Shown in pieces: positions 1,785 to 53,599 of a stretch of DNA of 64,000 nt. Made by a program: the position numbers and the translations under genes. The first letter of the stretch is position 1. Each line of letters begins with the position of its first letter. Origin of the DNA: Escherichia phage UGJNEcP3; sequence record OV876907; one strand, 5' to 3'. Under the pieces are notes generated by a model. The model was not told the DNA's origin and made no database searches. It saw only the letters and a list, made by a program, of their open reading frames with translations.

Positions 1785-1825
1785 GGGTAATTATATCACT
1801 TCACATTTACAGCGTTAAAGGACCA
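1785..1825 (-). promoter_or_regulatory. Sigma70-type promoter with extended -10 (TGATATAAT) upstream of uvsX
   Basis: Reverse complement of about 1790-1798 is TGATATAAT; TTAACG-like -35 at 17-bp spacing. Confidence 0.5.
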
Positions 1826-2708
1826 CGTCCTCATAACTTGGCATTTCGTGCTCAGAATGGATATGGGCACCGAAATAAATGAATTCAGCTAGACCAGGAT
1901 GGAATACTAAACCAGGATTCTCGTGATAAATGATATGAGGTCTTGATTTCAGAATCTGATAATATTCAACCTTACTAGGTTTGAATTTAATAATCTCTAC
2001 ATCAGGACGATAGTCTTCACGTTTAAATGAATCATTCGGGTCGGTGATATAAAGGCGAGAACCTTCAGCTGCAGCTTGGTCTACAACTCTTTCGAATTGA
2101 TAACATTTATCAGAGATACGGAATGGATGGAAAATACCATCAATTTTAATAGGCGCTAGACCTTCAGAGTAACGCTCAATTACTGCGGGATTAATTACCT
2201 TTTGGTCTACAAAAATCTTATCAGAGGACGCACCTCGTGACACCAGGACGTCTTTCTGGCATTGATTCAGGACTGTAGTATAAATCGAACGTTCAACTGA
2301 GGACACGTCGGTATCAATAAACTCGTCGATATAATAACGAGGAACTTCAGGGTCCATTGTAATGTTAAAGTTGAATTGTACAGTCTGAGTGCCATCATAA
2401 CCTGTGATATCGGTTACTAATCCTGAGCAGTCATAGTATTCGATTAACGAATCAACAACGAACTCGTTTTCAGACCAAAAATGTTTACGAGTTTCATAAG
2501 CATTTTCTTTATACCAAAGCGGTACAAAATTCAGTTCAGGAAATAATTCAATGCATTCTTTGATATCGCTCGAATTTCTAGGATAAGCCAGATAATCACC
2601 TGGGCAAGCACGGTTTAAATGGAGTTGAAAATTACCGTCCTTAAGGACGGCATATTCACCTGTTTCGTAACTACGCATACTGAAAATAGGAACGATAAAC
2701 AGACTCAT
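1815..2708 (-). CDS. Hypothetical protein at the beta-glucosyltransferase position; candidate DNA base-modifying transferase
   Basis: 297 aa; no resemblance to T4 beta-gt as recalled; ATG overlaps the stop of the upstream TS-family gene (ATGA); last gene of the five-gene coupled operon. Confidence 0.6.
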   Translation of the reverse strand: MSLFIVPIFSMRSYETGEYAVLKDGNFQLHLNRACPGDYLAYPRNSSDIKECIELFPELNFVPLWYKENAYETRKHFWSENEFVVDSLIEYYDCSGLVTDITGYDGTQTVQFNFNITMDPEVPRYYIDEFIDTDVSSVERSIYTTVLNQCQKDVLVSRGASSDKIFVDQKVINPAVIERYSEGLAPIKIDGIFHPFRISDKCYQFERVVDQAAAEGSRLYITDPNDSFKREDYRPDVEIIKFKPSKVEYYQILKSRPHIIYHENPGLVFHPGLAEFIYFGAHIHSEHEMPSYEDVVL

Positions 2709-3403
2709 TTCAGGAATCCTCGAACATAGTCAAAATCACGTTCAAATACATGTGCACTAACCATAGTATGGGAATACGTACCCAGACCAACACCACACTG
2801 TTCAGCAATAAAGGCCATCAGTTTACCCTGCAGATAGAAATCCAGCTGCATAACGATAGCACAGTTCTGTGAACGCATATGAGTGTGTGCATACAGACGT
2901 CCATCACGAATATAATATGTCACCGAATCGGTACAAGGATATTCTAAGGATTCGTCAGAATCAAGGAGGGCTTGGTCTTGTTCTTGGAGAATCTGGAACA
3001 CAACTCTTCTTGAGTTAGGCTTCTCTTTAAGCTCTTTAAGTAAGGCTGGGAGTTGGGCCACAATTCGAGGTCCATAGAAAGTGTTGAAGTTTGCAGGCAA
3101 TACGTCACTTTTCGGCTTATCAATGAACTTAGCAACATTAGGGTATTCCTTAAATGCTTCGGCGGCGTCAGTACCACCGGAAATCATAAACTTCCAGAAA
3201 GATTCGGCATAATCATAGTTGATACGATTAATACGAGGGTCGGTGAATTTATAGGTGCTTGCATCCAGAACTTCAACTGAAGCCGAACCAATTTCATAAC
3301 AACGACCGATACGAGAATCAACTGCAAACTGTGGAGCTTCCAGGATTTCTTCGTTCATTTGTTTAAATGCATTTTCAAAACTAACAGCGGTAATGTGTTT
3401 CAT
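2705..3403 (-). CDS. 42: Thymidylate-synthase-family pyrimidine hydroxymethylase, dCMP hydroxymethylase-like (divergent)
   Basis: 232 aa; PNSRR, YPCT (candidate catalytic Cys) and MRSQNCAIVMQLD motifs align with the TS/dCMP-hydroxymethylase pattern; Asp at the position that is Asp in T4 dCH and Asn in TS; syntenic with T4 gene 42 but far more divergent than neighbouring core genes. Confidence 0.75.
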   Translation of the reverse strand: MKHITAVSFENAFKQMNEEILEAPQFAVDSRIGRCYEIGSASVEVLDASTYKFTDPRINRINYDYAESFWKFMISGGTDAAEAFKEYPNVAKFIDKPKSDVLPANFNTFYGPRIVAQLPALLKELKEKPNSRRVVFQILQEQDQALLDSDESLEYPCTDSVTYYIRDGRLYAHTHMRSQNCAIVMQLDFYLQGKLMAFIAEQCGVGLGTYSHTMVSAHVFERDFDYVRGFLK

Positions 3404-3936
3404 TTATTCACCTCATAATTAATGTATTCATTAAGACGTTTTAATTCTACCATATCGACGTTAAGCAAGTTATTATGGCCGTCGTGATTTAAGATTTTAA
3501 ACACGTTTTCAAAACATGTTTCATATTGGCGGATAGTTAGGTTGAACTCATCTTTAGTCAGTTTAATGAGGTCATCTTCAAAGTCTTTATCCAACGGATT
3601 ACGGGTTAAAATAACCTCAATGATATTGAATTCTTTTTTGAAATCAATCCAATCTGCTAGTTCTACATAAGGGTCCATTTCACCACGAAGGAATCCCGAG
3701 TAAACAATATTACTAGGATAACCACGGTCTAGGATGTAAACGAAATTAGGGTCTAAAAACTTATACAACGTCTCGACTAAAGCCTTGTCATTATCAGTTC
3801 CTAACGAAATACATTTACCATTAATCTTTTTAGGAAAATCAATAAGACGATATTTCTTATCAGATAAAAGGGTTTCGATTAAAGTAGACTTCCCGGAATT
3901 ATCCGGGCCGTCTATAACAATGATTTTTGGATTCAT
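3400..3936 (-). CDS. P-loop kinase, polynucleotide-kinase-like
   Basis: 178 aa; Walker A IVIDGPDNSGKST at the N-terminus, similar in layout to the T4 Pnk kinase domain; ATGA-coupled to neighbours on both sides. Confidence 0.7.
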   Translation of the reverse strand: MNPKIIVIDGPDNSGKSTLIETLLSDKKYRLIDFPKKINGKCISLGTDNDKALVETLYKFLDPNFVYILDRGYPSNIVYSGFLRGEMDPYVELADWIDFKKEFNIIEVILTRNPLDKDFEDDLIKLTKDEFNLTIRQYETCFENVFKILNHDGHNNLLNVDMVELKRLNEYINYEVNK

Positions 3937-4292
3937 GGATGATAGGCCTTATAACTATCAAGAGTTCCTTCGCGAACCATTTCTTTAAAGTGGTCAGGAC
4001 GAATTGCTCGGTCATCGATGATAAAAGTATAACTCGGCTTGTGTGTAAGCAAATTGTGATATTTCAATCCAATTTTTTCAAGGTTCTTAACCAATGCAGG
4101 AACTACTTCAACCAAGATTCGGCCTGGGCCGCATGAAGTCATACCACGGGCAGTGAACAATGTAATCTCATGACCTTCATCGTACAGCTTATTAATCATG
4201 GACACCATTTCGGTGTCCGGTTTAAAGTTTTCATAATCACGGTCATCTTGCCAGTGAGTAATGGTATTATCGATGTCAAAGCACAAATGCAT
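3933..4292 (-). CDS. HAD-superfamily phosphatase (Pnk-phosphatase/GmhB-like)
   Basis: Motifs FDIDNT (DxDxT), LFTAR and IIDDR; start placed at the second ATG (4290-4292), which has a GGAAGAAA Shine-Dalgarno, rather than the ORF-track start at 4307. Confidence 0.7.
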   Translation of the reverse strand: MHLCFDIDNTITHWQDDRDYENFKPDTEMVSMINKLYDEGHEITLFTARGMTSCGPGRILVEVVPALVKNLEKIGLKYHNLLTHKPSYTFIIDDRAIRPDHFKEMVREGTLDSYKAYHP

Positions 4293-6025: not shown

Positions 6026-6526
6026 TTAAATCTTATCTTTACCGATTTCAATACACTGTTCTATTGCCGCCGGTACTTTGGTCTTGAGCTTATCGATTTG
6101 TTTCTTATAATCACGAGCTTTACCGAAGCTCTCGGTTTCGAGCATTTCGTAATAACGAGCCTCGTGGATGGAAATCTGTAGATTGATATGGTTTACGCAC
6201 ATCGCATACAGTTTCTGCTTTTTGTACAAATCATCTTGGCGCTTCATTTCTGCCTGGTGTTTGGCTAGTACCGCTTCACGCTTAGACTCTTGTTCACGTT
6301 GGAATTCGATTTCCCTTTGAGCATATTTTGCACAGTTATTACCACATTGATTATTAGCTCGGGTATACACAAGTCCAGAACCGGCACGGAATTTCATTTC
6401 GCCATCGAATTGTTTCTGTTCAGCTGCGATACGAGCTTTACCAACTTCATCGGCTGAAACTGCATCACCATATTGGACCGCACAACCTGATAGGAGCATA
6501 CTCATTGCGATAATTAACTTTTTCAT
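6026..6526 (-). CDS. Putative lipoprotein
   Basis: 166 aa; N-terminus MKKLIIAMSMLLSGC is a signal peptide with lipobox; SD GAGGAT upstream. Confidence 0.65.
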   Translation of the reverse strand: MKKLIIAMSMLLSGCAVQYGDAVSADEVGKARIAAEQKQFDGEMKFRAGSGLVYTRANNQCGNNCAKYAQREIEFQREQESKREAVLAKHQAEMKRQDDLYKKQKLYAMCVNHINLQISIHEARYYEMLETESFGKARDYKKQIDKLKTKVPAAIEQCIEIGKDKI

Positions 6527-6533
6527 AATATCC

Positions 6534-6671
6534 TCAATTAAAACAGTTATACTTAATTTGTGCTATAAGAATAATCCATCCTATGATTAATGTCGGAATC
6601 ATTGGCGGAATTGCCACTGCCCAATAAACGGTAAAGGCAGCCATTATAAGAAATAAAATAATTATCTTCAT
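6534..6671 (-). CDS. Small hydrophobic membrane protein (imm.1-like position)
   Basis: 45 aa ORF found by hand (MKIIILFLIMAAFTVYWAVAIPPMIPTLIIGWIILIAQIKYNCFN); ATG overlaps the imm stop (ATGA); below the ORF-track size cutoff. Confidence 0.35.
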   Translation of the reverse strand: MKIIILFLIMAAFTVYWAVAIPPMIPTLIIGWIILIAQIKYNCFN

Positions 6672-6904
6672 TGTTTAACGATAATGATTTGTGCGGTTGA
6701 TTTACGTTCAGCGACGATAGCCCAGATTAAAGCCACTACCCAACCAATCATCGTCCATCCTAACAGGAGATTAAGGAAGAAGATTCCGACATTGTTACGA
6801 GTGCCTCGCAGAAGAGCTAGAATCCATGGTAAGAAGTAAGCGATGAACATCATAACCAGAGAACCGAATCCTAAAACACCAGCACTAACGATTAAAGCTT
6901 CCAT
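6668..6904 (-). CDS. imm: Superinfection immunity protein Imm-like membrane protein
   Basis: 78 aa, two predicted TM helices with the N-x-x-x-I-F-x-x-N-x-L-L-G-W-T-x-I-G-W-x-x-A-L-I-W-A pattern typical of the Imm family; directly downstream of gene 43 as in T4. Confidence 0.7.
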   Translation of the reverse strand: MEALIVSAGVLGFGSLVMMFIAYFLPWILALLRGTRNNVGIFFLNLLLGWTMIGWVVALIWAIVAERKSTAQIIIVKQ

Positions 6905-52837: not shown

Positions 52838-52845
<8 letters not shown>

Positions 52846-53599
52846 TTTTATTTCCTAATAATTTATCAATAGTAGTGTATAGTTCAGAAAGAGTGCCGTT
52901 ATTTTCAACAACAACGTCACCAGGTAAAATTGGTAGACCCGCTTCAGTGATGTGCGAGTCTTGTACTTGACCGGTTTCAGCGCGAACTACATGAATAATC
53001 GTAGCACCCATCGCTCTGAGTGAATCAATTTCGTGTGTTTGACGAACATCAGGTACGACATAGTATTTCGCATCAGAGTATATTTTATCAAAATAGTCTA
53101 AAGCGAACAACTTAACCCAATACATCTTATCAAATTGGTTAACAATAATATCAGTCCCAAGGGTCTGCATGAGACGACGTACTGACCAATTGTTATTTTT
53201 ATTTATTACTTCAAATAGCTGGTCTTTTGTTTCTTCAGACAGATATTGGACCGGGGTAAGACCGTAATGATATGCGGTAAGAACATCAATTCCTGGAATA
53301 GGAAGGATATTATTCAGTTTAACAATAGCATGTTCAAAAATATCAACCACATCATACGGTTTTAAAGGAAGGGTTTCTTCACGGTCGTAACCGATACCTT
53401 CAAAACAATTAAAATCAAGTTTAGGCATATAGCTACGGTCGAATACAGGGTCATCAGATATGTATTCATAAGCTTCAGCCAGATACTTTTTAATAGGACC
53501 AGCGAGTTGGAATTTTACGGAATCCATATTCTCAATTACATAGTTAGCAACGGTATCCTTACCGCTACGTTTGATTCCTACAATTGATATTAGTTTCAT
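52838..53599 (-). CDS. 1: Deoxynucleoside monophosphate kinase gp1
   Basis: 253 aa; P-loop GIKRSGKDT and WSVRRLMQTLGTD...MYWVKLFALDY...MGATIIHVVR match T4 gp1. Confidence 0.93.

What the first reader, a model, noticed from the sequence alone, without database searches (positions are those of the whole stretch)
1815..2708. Unrecognised 297 aa protein occupying the beta-glucosyltransferase locus
It is the terminal gene of the coupled operon, sits exactly where T4 encodes beta-gt, and has no resemblance I can see to beta-gt. This makes it the prime candidate for the enzyme that attaches the final group to hmC in DNA.
Basis: inference. Interest (0 to 1): 0.75.

Follow-up and report, generated by a model that had tools for sequence, protein, structure and literature searches.

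The report
Phage DNA arabinosyltransferase, already described family

Summary
The 297 aa ORF (1815-2708, minus strand) is real. It is the last of five translationally coupled genes and sits where T4 has beta-gt. The window is Escherichia phage UGJNEcP4, a Dhakavirus.

The protein is the intact ortholog of RB69 gp47:46 (69% and 63% identity), HY126 XAN60474 (67%), Thanatos TH1_063 (51%) and DLP3 gp79 (50%). Lee et al. (NAR 2026) call this family "arabinosyltransferase 1". An AlphaFold2 model (pLDDT 94.7) has a compact GT-B fold, with MshA/BshA-type glycosyltransferases and UDP-GlcNAc 2-epimerases as best matches. No sequence profile recognises it.

The upstream "gp42" is not a hydroxymethylase. 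It is 79% identical to RB69 gp48 and carries the D169N signature of dCMP 5-hydroxylases, so the acceptor base is 5-hydroxycytosine. The other operon genes make UDP-arabinofuranose.

The genome has no second transferase and no arabinose-5-P isomerase. It is therefore a minimal cluster that predicts mono-arabinosylated DNA.

One question is open in the papers I could read: whether the first sugar goes onto DNA or onto the nucleotide. This family is consistently linked, and in some phages fused, to an extra thymidylate-kinase-like kinase, which keeps the nucleotide route plausible.

Verdict: already known kind, modest interest.

The parts
1815..2708 (-). 297 aa GT-B protein; predicted first, and in this phage only, arabinofuranosyltransferase acting on 5-hydroxycytosine (GT1; ortholog of RB69 gp47:46, DLP3 gp79, HY126 XAN60474, Thanatos TH1_063)
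   Evidence: ORF. Orthology: 69% and 63% identity to RB69 p047 and p046, 67% to HY126, 51% to Thanatos, 50% to DLP3 gp79. AF2 model pLDDT 94.7, pTM 0.89. Foldseek places it in the GT-B superfamily.
2705..3403 (-). 232 aa thymidylate-synthase homolog; predicted dCMP 5-hydroxylase (5hodCMP synthase), not a hydroxymethylase
   Evidence: Pfam Thymidylat_synt. 79% identity to RB69 gp48 but only 25% to T4 gp42. Carries the D169N, N177D, L143E and Y209F signature shared with RB69 gp48 and the HY126 enzyme. Activity of RB69 gp48 was shown in PMC13326640.
3400..3936 (-). 178 aa thymidylate-kinase-like P-loop nucleotide kinase; homolog of RB69 gp45 and DLP3 gp78; substrate unknown
   Evidence: PHROG 761 'thymidylate kinase' E=1e-38. 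Homologs lie next to GT1 in RB69, HY126, Thanatos, L009 and L010, E=1e-26 to 1e-31. Present in 343 phage records, nearly the same set as GT1. Fused to GT1 in other lineages.
3933..4292 (-). about 120 aa HAD phosphatase (AfhF-like); predicted Araf-1,5-bisphosphate 5-phosphatase. The mechanical ORF extends to 4307.
   Evidence: 61% identity to RB69 p051. NCBIfam TIGR01689 capsule-biosynthesis phosphatase, E=5e-14. Role is by analogy with HY126 AfhF as reported in PMC13326640.
4292..5965 (-). 557 aa bifunctional enzyme (AfhE-like): N-terminal sugar-1-P nucleotidyltransferase plus C-terminal APH-type kinase, making UDP-arabinofuranose. The mechanical ORF extends to 5995.
   Evidence: Pfam NTP_transferase (residues 13-110) and APH (356-427). 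41-44% identity to RB69 p052 and p053. Present in 368 phage records.
52838..53599 (-). canonical gp1-type deoxynucleoside monophosphate kinase, encoded away from the cluster
   Evidence: GenBank annotation of OV877765.1 only (UGJNECP4_00157, record 76066-76827; window = record - 23228). Its RB69 homolog gp159 phosphorylates 5hodCMP (PMC13326640). I did not check homology here.
1790..1818 (-). promoter-like site (TTAACG-17-TATAAT with TG) just after the stop codon, upstream of uvsX; marks the 3' end of the operon
   Evidence: Consensus scan. The number of such sites in the region is not above the shuffled expectation, so this is weak evidence.

Best explanation
The ORF encodes the first glycosyltransferase of the phage pathway that replaces cytosine with arabinosylated 5-hydroxycytosine. 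In this phage it is the only one. The inferred pathway runs as follows. The upstream ThyA homolog hydroxylates dCMP to 5-hydroxy-dCMP. The 557 aa bifunctional enzyme and the HAD phosphatase convert host arabinose-5-phosphate into UDP-arabinofuranose. The 297 aa GT-B enzyme binds UDP-Araf in its C-terminal Rossmann domain and transfers arabinofuranose to the O5 hydroxyl of 5-hydroxycytosine, giving an ether-linked alpha-Araf-5-O-(deoxy)cytidine. The genome has no homolog of the second or third transferases (RB69 gp3, DLP3 gp76/77), so the DNA is predicted to be mono-arabinosylated, as reported for the single-GT phage Thanatos. Shown here: orthology, fold, operon structure, the hydroxylase signature and the gene content of the genome. 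Inferred: donor, acceptor, stereochemistry and product. Whether the acceptor is 5hoC in newly made DNA (the precedent for all characterised phage DNA glycosyltransferases) or the free nucleotide is unresolved. I put it at roughly 60:40 in favour of DNA.
For: Full-length orthology to RB69 gp47:46, HY126, Thanatos TH1_063 and DLP3 gp79. Lee et al. (PMC13326640) assign these as the initial arabinosyltransferase. AF2 model with pLDDT 94.7 and two Rossmann-like halves. Foldseek probability 1.0 to the retaining GT-B enzymes MshA 3c4q (TMq 0.59), BshA 6n1x (0.58), HepE and WsaF and to phage and giant-virus group-1 GTs. Invariant residues cluster in the loops that follow the beta-strands of both domains. 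The gene is translationally coupled to the hydroxylase. The hydroxylase signature D169N is present. UDP-Araf genes are present. GT1, kinase and bifunctional enzyme have near-identical phyletic profiles: 350, 343 and 368 records with matching per-genus counts. No gp3, beta-gt or annotated GT exists elsewhere in the genome.
Against: I could read no direct enzymology for this family. Lee et al. report no arabinosylation by individual DLP3 GTs, including the ortholog gp79, on 5hoC-DNA. The Thanatos ortholog was reported to have a different activity, UDP-xylose pyrophosphorylase. The top Foldseek hits are UDP-GlcNAc 2-epimerases rather than transferases, and TM-scores are modest at 0.45-0.59. No sequence profile links the family to any GT family. 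No Dhakavirus DNA has been chemically analysed in the literature I could search.
Confidence: 0.8

Rival explanations
1. The chemistry is the same but the acceptor differs. The enzyme arabinosylates the free nucleotide (5-hydroxy-dCMP) before replication. The cluster's extra thymidylate-kinase-like kinase then phosphorylates the bulky Ara-5hodCMP, and the polymerase incorporates the pre-glycosylated triphosphate.
For: The order hydroxylase, GT1, TMK-like kinase, often with overlapping reading frames, is conserved in RB69, HY126, DLP3 and Thanatos and in two distant 350-380 kb contigs. The same trio is adjacent in the galactose-using Rhizobium phage RL38J1. In the most divergent member I looked up (L011), a kinase-family gene lies immediately upstream of GT1 and overlaps its start. 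GT1 is physically fused to a dTMP-kinase-like domain in about 8 of the 150 best representatives. The phage already has a gp1-type dNMP kinase that, in RB69, phosphorylates 5hodCMP, so the extra kinase needs another substrate (PMC13326640). DLP3 gp79 was inactive on 5hoC-DNA, and Lee et al. state they cannot tell mononucleotide from DNA. The family is acidic (pI 4.83, median 5.2) against 9.05 for T4 beta-gt.
Against: Every characterised phage DNA glycosyltransferase (T4 alpha- and beta-gt, and DLP3 gp76+77 in PMC13326640) acts on DNA. 5hodC is incorporated into DNA when the hydroxylase and the gp1-type kinase are expressed in E. coli, so a DNA-level acceptor exists. Fusion and adjacency show functional linkage, not reaction order. 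In this window the kinase lies upstream of the hydroxylase rather than after GT1. pI is weak evidence. He et al. 2026 may already have settled the point, but I could not read that paper.
Confidence: 0.3
2. The protein is a UDP-pentose pyrophosphorylase that makes the activated sugar, as reported for the Thanatos ortholog TH1_063, and some other protein does the transfer.
For: PMC12838424 reports formation of UDP-xylose from UTP and xylose-1-P with purified TH1_063. TH1_063 is 51% identical to this protein over its full length.
Against: The model has a GT-B fold, not a nucleotidyltransferase fold. There is no PF00483 signal. The neighbouring 557 aa protein does carry an NTP_transferase domain, and its HY126 homolog AfhE is reported to be the UDP-arabinose pyrophosphorylase. 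The genome would be left with no transferase at all.
Confidence: 0.05
3. The protein is a non-transferase GT-B enzyme such as an NDP-sugar 2-epimerase or hydrolase that remodels the sugar nucleotide.
For: The best Foldseek E-values are to UDP-GlcNAc 2-epimerases (7vza 5e-7, 6vlb, 1f6d). Lee et al. also list an epimerase as the top hit for the RL38J1 first GT.
Against: Epimerases and GT-B transferases share one fold, and retaining GT4 enzymes give the highest TM-scores. No epimerase Pfam or NCBIfam signal appears in any of 40 members. UDP-Araf needs no epimerisation in the AfhE/AfhF route. The family co-occurs one-to-one with the hydroxylase module and is fused to a nucleotide kinase.
Confidence: 0.05
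4. One reading: an unrelated analogue of T4 beta-gt that adds a group to hydroxymethylcytosine in DNA.
For: The locus is the same as T4 beta-gt. GenBank annotations of relatives call the upstream gene dCMP hydroxymethylase.
Against: The upstream enzyme carries the hydroxylase signature and is 79% identical to the experimentally characterised 5-hydroxylase RB69 gp48, but only 25% identical to T4 gp42. RB69 and Mosigvirus NP DNA contain ether-linked arabinosyl-5-hydroxy-dC, not an hmC derivative (PMC13326640, PMC13390438).
Confidence: 0.03

Closest known systems
RB69 gp46:47, HY126 XAN60474, DLP3 gp79 ('alpha-arabinosyltransferase 1'; Lee et al., NAR 2026, PMC13326640) and Thanatos TH1_063
   Same: Full-length homology at 50-69% identity. 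Same length of about 300 aa. Same predicted compact GT-B fold, with MshA (3c4q) among the top hits. Same position immediately downstream of the D169N ThyA-type hydroxylase in the pol-uvsX module. Same companion genes: TMK-like kinase, HAD phosphatase and bifunctional UDP-Araf enzyme.
   Different: Here the kinase lies upstream of the hydroxylase instead of downstream of GT1. The cluster also lacks the arabinose-5-P isomerase, the U32-like protein (RB69 p050), p049 and any second or third transferase. That makes it a minimal five-gene version, most like Thanatos in having a single GT.
T4 beta-glucosyltransferase (GT63, Pfam PF09198)
   Same: Same genomic slot between the gene 42 homolog and uvsX. 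Both use a GT-B architecture and a UDP-sugar donor to decorate a C5-oxygenated cytosine. The GT-B fold is established knowledge for beta-gt and predicted for this protein.
   Different: No detectable sequence similarity. About 55 residues shorter. Acidic rather than basic (pI 4.8 against 9.05). The acceptor is 5-hydroxycytosine rather than hmC, and the sugar is arabinofuranose rather than glucose (inferred).
Retaining GT4-type GT-B glycosyltransferases (MshA, BshA, HepE, PimA-like)
   Same: Best TM-scores in the PDB search, 0.54-0.59. Two Rossmann-like domains. A conserved Arg/Lys pair after the first C-domain strand (R197...K201) and an H-P-G...E segment at the usual position of the EX7E helix (the assignment is inference).
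   Different: No Pfam, NCBIfam or PDB sequence-profile match. The C-terminal domain is much reduced, to about 105 residues. The canonical EX7E spacing is absent.
RB69 gp3 and DLP3 gp76/gp77 (second and third beta-arabinosyltransferases)
   Same: They belong to the same pathway and also have a GT-B fold (per PMC13326640).
   Different: Profile-profile comparison gives probability 0.1%, so they form a separate family. They are absent from this phage. DLP3 gp76+77 were shown to act on DNA, whereas no activity has been shown for the GT1 family in the papers I could read.

Membership tests
Phage 5hoC first-arabinosyltransferase family (RB69 gp46:47 / DLP3 gp79) | Full-length sequence homology to the named members | tested here: met
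   69% and 63% identity to RB69 p047 and p046; 67% to HY126; 51% to Thanatos TH1_063; 50% to DLP3 gp79, E=2e-98.
Phage 5hoC first-arabinosyltransferase family (RB69 gp46:47 / DLP3 gp79) | Encoded next to a ThyA homolog with the 5hodCMP-synthase signature (D169N) | tested here: met
   ATGA overlap with the upstream ThyA homolog. D169N, N177D, L143E and Y209F are present, as in RB69 gp48 and HY126, whereas T4 gp42 keeps D169.
Phage 5hoC first-arabinosyltransferase family (RB69 gp46:47 / DLP3 gp79) | Co-occurrence with UDP-arabinofuranose synthesis genes (AfhE-like bifunctional enzyme, AfhF-like HAD) | tested here: met
   Both are in the same operon. Phyletic counts are 350 and 368 records with matching genus profiles.
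Phage 5hoC first-arabinosyltransferase family (RB69 gp46:47 / DLP3 gp79) | Transfers arabinofuranose from UDP-Araf to 5-hydroxycytosine | not testable with these tools
   Needs enzymology. In the papers I could read, the DLP3 ortholog alone was inactive on 5hoC-DNA.
Phage 5hoC first-arabinosyltransferase family (RB69 gp46:47 / DLP3 gp79) | Virion DNA contains arabinosyl-5-hydroxy-dC | not testable with these tools
   I found no chemical analysis of Dhakavirus DNA. Lee et al. include Dhakaviruses by comparative genomics only.
GT-B fold glycosyltransferases | Two Rossmann-like beta/alpha/beta domains with an inter-domain cleft | tested here: met
   AF2 model with pLDDT 94.7 and alternating strand-helix pattern in residues 1-181 and 192-297. 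Foldseek probability 1.0 with 113 PDB hits at E<=1e-3, all of the listed hits being GT-B proteins. BFVD group-1 GTs also match.
GT-B fold glycosyltransferases | Recognised by a curated GT sequence profile (e.g. Pfam Glycos_transf_1 or Glyco_trans_1_4) | tested here: not met
   No Pfam GT family for the protein or for any of 40 family members, even at E<=10. No NCBIfam hit. A family-profile search of the PDB found nothing significant.
GT-B fold glycosyltransferases | Donor-binding residues: Arg/Lys after C-domain strand 1, and Glu on the helix after strand 4 (EX7E in GT4) | tested here: inconclusive
T4 beta-glucosyltransferase (PF09198 / GT63) | Sequence membership | tested here: not met
   T4 beta-gt scores E=9e-98 on PF09198, whereas this protein has no hit. 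tblastn and hhalign are both negative.
T4 beta-glucosyltransferase (PF09198 / GT63) | Acts on 5-hydroxymethylcytosine made by a gp42-type hydroxymethylase | tested here: not met
   The phage's only gp42-like gene has the hydroxylase signature and is 79% identical to RB69 gp48, against 25% to T4 gp42.
UDP-GlcNAc 2-epimerase (Pfam Epimerase_2) | Sequence membership and sugar-nucleotide epimerisation context | tested here: not met
   The resemblance is at fold level only. No profile hit appears in 40 members. The operon context needs a transferase, not an epimerase.
Sugar-1-phosphate nucleotidyltransferase (activity claimed for Thanatos TH1_063) | Nucleotidyltransferase fold and PF00483-type signature | tested here: not met
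   The model is GT-B. PF00483 hits the neighbouring 557 aa protein, not this one.

The most novel reading that the evidence does not exclude
The first sugar is added before replication. This GT-B enzyme would glycosylate 5-hydroxy-dCMP, and the cluster's dedicated thymidylate-kinase-like enzyme, which is fused to the transferase in some phages, would phosphorylate the glycosylated nucleotide. The replicative polymerase would then build DNA directly from a sugar-bearing dNTP. That would be the first pre-replicative nucleotide glycosylation pathway in a virus. It would also explain why a hydroxylase, transferase and kinase triad is conserved across phage families that use different sugars.
Probability: 0.3. 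Interest if true: 0.7.

Novelty: already known. Interest (0 to 1): 0.3.

Why it matters
The result corrects the annotation of a whole genus of therapeutic-candidate coliphages (Bp7, JS98, JS10, QL01, WG01, IME08 and others). Their [quoted passage not shown] operon is in fact a minimal 5-hydroxycytosine arabinosylation pathway. These phages should therefore carry mono-arabinosylated cytosine rather than hmC. That affects their sensitivity to restriction, CRISPR and type IV systems, and how well their DNA can be sequenced.

The minimal five-gene cluster, with one transferase and no isomerase, is a clean system for asking the question that remains open in the papers I could read: whether the first sugar is placed on DNA or on the nucleotide.

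Tried and rejected
- Sequence routes to a known GT family all failed:
  - Pfam on the protein and on 40 family members.
  - NCBIfam.
  - Family-profile search of PDB sequences; best E=0.64, which is noise.
  - hhalign of the family profile against T4 beta-gt, RB69 gp3 and DLP3 gp77.
  - hhalign against a 7-sequence profile of the gp3/gp76/gp77 family.
- A small profile of the cluster's 124 aa HAD did not match the N-terminal HAD domains of the fusion proteins. Those belong to the KdsC/KDN-9-P phosphatase subfamily instead.
- The promoter and terminator scan found no more sites than shuffled sequence gives. I use only the site after the stop codon, as weak support for the operon boundary.
- He et al. 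2026 (Nat Chem Biol) and Mahler et al. 2025 (Cell Host Microbe) could not be retrieved. Papers citing them gave no detail on the first transferase.
- I considered an epimerase reading, a pyrophosphorylase reading and a literal hmC-transferase reading, and set them aside as unlikely (see rival explanations).
Full report
**What is there.** The window matches Escherichia phage UGJNEcP4 (OV877765.1, genus Dhakavirus) at 100% identity. It is about 96% identical to Bp7, QL01, WG01 and KIT01. On the minus strand, a 297 aa ATG-started ORF occupies 1815-2708. Its start overlaps the stop of the upstream gene (ATGA), and a GAGGA ribosome-binding site precedes it. It is the last of five genes whose reading frames overlap by 1, 4, 4 and 4 nt:
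- a 557 aa bifunctional enzyme,
- a HAD phosphatase of about 120 aa,
- a 178 aa kinase,
- a 232 aa ThyA homolog,
- the 297 aa protein.

A 77 nt gap containing a promoter-like site then separates the operon from uvsX. T4's order is 43 - imm.1 - imm - 42 - beta-gt - segA - uvsX, so the ORF does sit in the beta-gt slot.

**Identity of the protein.** Pfam and NCBIfam find nothing, and PHROGs places it in a family of unknown function. It has full-length homologs in 350 phage genomes infecting Escherichia, Acinetobacter, Klebsiella, Shigella, Serratia, Proteus, Yersinia and others. An exhaustive profile search of 1.84 billion proteins returns 241 cluster representatives.

It is 69% identical to RB69 ORF047c over residues 1-179 and 63% identical to ORF046c over residues 184-297. 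It is therefore the intact version of a gene that is split in the RB69 reference by what Lee et al. report as a sequencing error. Other identities are 67% to the HY126 homolog, 51% to Thanatos TH1_063 and 50% to DLP3 gp79.

Lee et al. (NAR 2026, PMC13326640) name RB69 gp46:47 and DLP3 gp79 'arabinosyltransferase 1', the proposed initial transferase. They explicitly include Dhakaviruses in their synteny figure of cytosine arabinosylation clusters.

**Fold.** An AlphaFold2 model built from a 40-sequence family alignment is very confident (mean pLDDT 94.7, pTM 0.89). It shows two strand-helix-alternating halves, residues 1-181 and 192-297.

Foldseek against the PDB gives 113 hits at E<=1e-3, and all of the listed hits are GT-B superfamily proteins. 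The lowest E-values go to UDP-GlcNAc 2-epimerases. The best TM-scores go to the retaining GT4 enzymes MshA (3c4q, 0.59), BshA (0.58), a mannosyltransferase (7qsg, 0.56) and HepE. 3c4q is also the hit Lee et al. list for RB69 gp46:47.

Against viral models, the protein matches family members first and then group-1 glycosyltransferases of phages and giant viruses. Invariant residues sit in the loops after the beta-strands of both domains, where GT-B enzymes bind donor and acceptor: M11-R12-S13, D24-G25-N26, Y66, N69, R74, N113, Q151, F193-P195-F196-R197, D200, T222-D223-P224-N225, K246 and H270. Mapping R197/K201 and H270...E275 to the diphosphate-binding and ribose-binding positions is my inference, because no residue-level superposition was available.

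At sequence level the family is unrelated to T4 beta-gt, RB69 gp3 or DLP3 gp76/77, with hhalign probabilities below 1%.

**The base is 5-hydroxycytosine, not hmC.** The upstream ThyA homolog is 79% identical to RB69 gp48 and only 25% identical to T4 gp42. This matches RB69 gp48 and HY126 exactly, while T4 gp42 keeps D169.

Lee et al. showed that RB69 gp48 and DLP3 gp80 make 5-hydroxy-dCMP with oxygen derived from O2 and a bound flavin. They propose D169N as the predictive signature. They also showed by NMR that in RB69 the base-proximal sugar is alpha-D-arabinofuranose, ether-linked to C5.

**The rest of the pathway.** The 557 aa protein combines an NTP_transferase domain with an APH-type kinase domain. 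It is homologous to RB69 p053:p052. The HAD protein is 61% identical to RB69 p051. According to Lee et al.'s summary of He et al. 2026, the HY126 homologs AfhE and AfhF convert arabinofuranose-5-P via the 1,5-bisphosphate and the 1-phosphate into UDP-arabinose.

A whole-genome tblastn finds no homolog of RB69 gp3 (the second transferase), the arabinose-5-P isomerase p055, p049, p050 or T4 beta-gt. No glycosyltransferase is annotated anywhere in the genome. Pfam finds no GT domain in the larger unannotated proteins, although Pfam also misses GT1 itself.

The phage therefore carries a minimal five-gene cluster. It presumably draws arabinose-5-P from the host KdsD/GutQ enzymes (inference). With a single transferase, it should make mono-arabinosylated 5hoC, as Lee et al. 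state for the single-GT phage Thanatos.

**An open point, and what I found on it.** Lee et al. saw no activity of individual DLP3 transferases, including the ortholog gp79, on 5hoC-DNA with UDP-Araf or UDP-Arap. They say their experiments do not distinguish mononucleotide from DNA for the first arabinosylation. Several findings here bear on this:
- The family is tightly tied to an extra thymidylate-kinase-like kinase. Homologs of the window's 178 aa kinase (E=1e-26 to 1e-31) lie immediately after GT1 in RB69, HY126, DLP3 and Thanatos, often overlapping it.
- The same holds in two very distant contigs of 356 and 383 kb.
- A kinase-family gene lies immediately upstream of GT1, overlapping its start, in the most divergent member I looked up.
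- Lee et al.'s Table 1 shows the same kinase, GT1 and hydroxylase trio adjacent in the galactose-using Rhizobium phage RL38J1.
- About 8 of the 150 best representatives are GT1 proteins with a C-terminal dTMP-kinase-like domain. P0205 matches TIGR00041 over positions 5-193 of 196 (E=7e-6), and P0249 matches the cluster-kinase profile at E=4e-6.
- GT1, kinase and bifunctional enzyme occur in 350, 343 and 368 phage records with the same per-genus counts.
- The phage also has a canonical gp1-type dNMP kinase, whose RB69 homolog phosphorylates 5hodCMP. The extra kinase therefore lacks an obvious job if glycosylation happens on DNA.
- The family is acidic (pI 4.83, median 5.2), against 9.05 for T4 beta-gt.

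Together these fit, but do not prove, a route in which GT1 glycosylates 5hodCMP and the kinase then phosphorylates the product. Against this, every characterised phage DNA glycosyltransferase works on DNA. 5hodC can also be incorporated into DNA without glycosylation. Linkage or fusion does not fix the order of reactions. In this window the kinase is upstream of the hydroxylase rather than after GT1. I put the nucleotide-level route at about 0.3.

**Rivals.** The Thanatos authors reported UDP-xylose pyrophosphorylase activity for TH1_063. That is hard to reconcile with a GT-B fold, and with the NTP_transferase domain carried by the neighbouring bifunctional enzyme, so I give it 0.05. A non-transferase GT-B activity such as epimerase is suggested only by the ranking of Foldseek hits, and I also give it 0.05. 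The literal hmC reading is contradicted by the hydroxylase signature, and I give it 0.03.

**Novelty and verdict.** However, the family, its predicted role and the Dhakavirus cluster are already in the 2025-2026 literature. I could read PMC13326640, but not Mahler et al. 2025 or He et al. 2026. I therefore rate it 'already known', with interest 0.3. The residual interest lies in three things:
- the minimal single-transferase cluster, whose mono-arabinosylated product has not been verified chemically in any paper I could find;
- the widespread mis-annotation of these genes;
- the unresolved acceptor question, for which the kinase linkage and fusions give a testable lead.

**Limits.** There is no enzymology and no residue-level structural alignment. 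The gp1-type kinase is taken from the GenBank annotation only.

Noticed in passing
P0200, P0205, P0222, P0224, P0241, P0242, P0249 (proteins): Members of the GT1 family with a C-terminal dTMP-kinase-like domain of about 200 aa carrying the P-loop 'EGFDRxGK'. P0205 matches TIGR00041 over nearly the full model, and P0249 matches the profile of this cluster's own kinase. This is a natural fusion of two genes that are neighbours in the window's operon.
   Followed up: partly
P0131, P0144, P0146, P0170, P0176, P0193, P0208 (proteins): GT1-family members with an N-terminal HAD domain of the KdsC / KDN-9-phosphate phosphatase subfamily (TIGR01670, E=5e-11 for P0146). This is a different HAD subfamily from the window's 124 aa phosphatase. 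It may mean those viruses attach a different sugar, possibly an ulosonic acid.
   Followed up: partly
L009:4426-7576 (NCBI GCA_040384225.1, 383 kb contig): A Flavodoxin_2-family gene lies two genes upstream of a hydroxylase-type ThyA homolog, GT1 and kinase triad in a jumbo-phage-like contig. That fits the flavin dependence reported for the hydroxylase.
   Followed up: no
L011:5496-11941 (Logan SRR22071707_3375): The most divergent GT1 member (31% identity) sits in the order kinase, GT1, U32-peptidase-like protein (compare RB69 p050), GT47-like protein, PolIII-alpha replicase. No ThyA homolog lies within 6 kb. This is a different viral lineage and possibly a different base chemistry.
   Followed up: no
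Serratia phages Muldoon (MN095771.1:23275-24135) and PS2 (NC_024121.1:24147-24683): At the equivalent locus these phages have only a 23-26% identical relative of GT1 (BFVD model TM 0.75). Five more Serratia records match GT1 than match the kinase (14 against 9), so a divergent sub-type may work without the kinase.
   Followed up: no
window 3400-3936 (-) and window 52838-53599 (-): The phage encodes two nucleotide monophosphate kinases: the cluster's thymidylate-kinase-like enzyme and a canonical T4 gp1-type dNMP kinase. None of the papers I could read assigns a substrate to the first.
   Followed up: partly
window 6026-6526 (-), 6534-6671 (-), 6668-6904 (-): Between DNA polymerase and the modification operon lie a 166 aa predicted lipoprotein (signal peptide ending LLSGC; PHROG 1754, unknown function), a 45 aa hydrophobic ORF, and the imm (superinfection immunity) homolog.
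   Followed up: no
window 2705-4292 (-); GenBank OV877765.1 UGJNECP4_00049-00051: The deposited annotations are misleading. 'Thymidylate synthase' is the dCMP 5-hydroxylase, and 'phosphoheptose isomerase' is a HAD phosphatase. The same labels recur in many related records.
   Followed up: yes
L001:2598-3498 (RB69 NC_004928.1 24597-25497): The intact 297-299 aa ORFs in this window, HY126, DLP3 and Thanatos align end to end with RB69 p047 plus p046. This independently supports Lee et al.'s statement that the RB69 reference splits one gene through a sequencing error.
   Followed up: yes
PMC12838424 (Thanatos TH1_063; L008:35460-36362): A published in vitro activity (UDP-xylose pyrophosphorylase) for a 51%-identical ortholog conflicts with the GT-B fold, and with the role Lee et al. 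later assigned to that gene (the single ara-GT). It is worth re-testing with a mock-purification control.
   Followed up: partly
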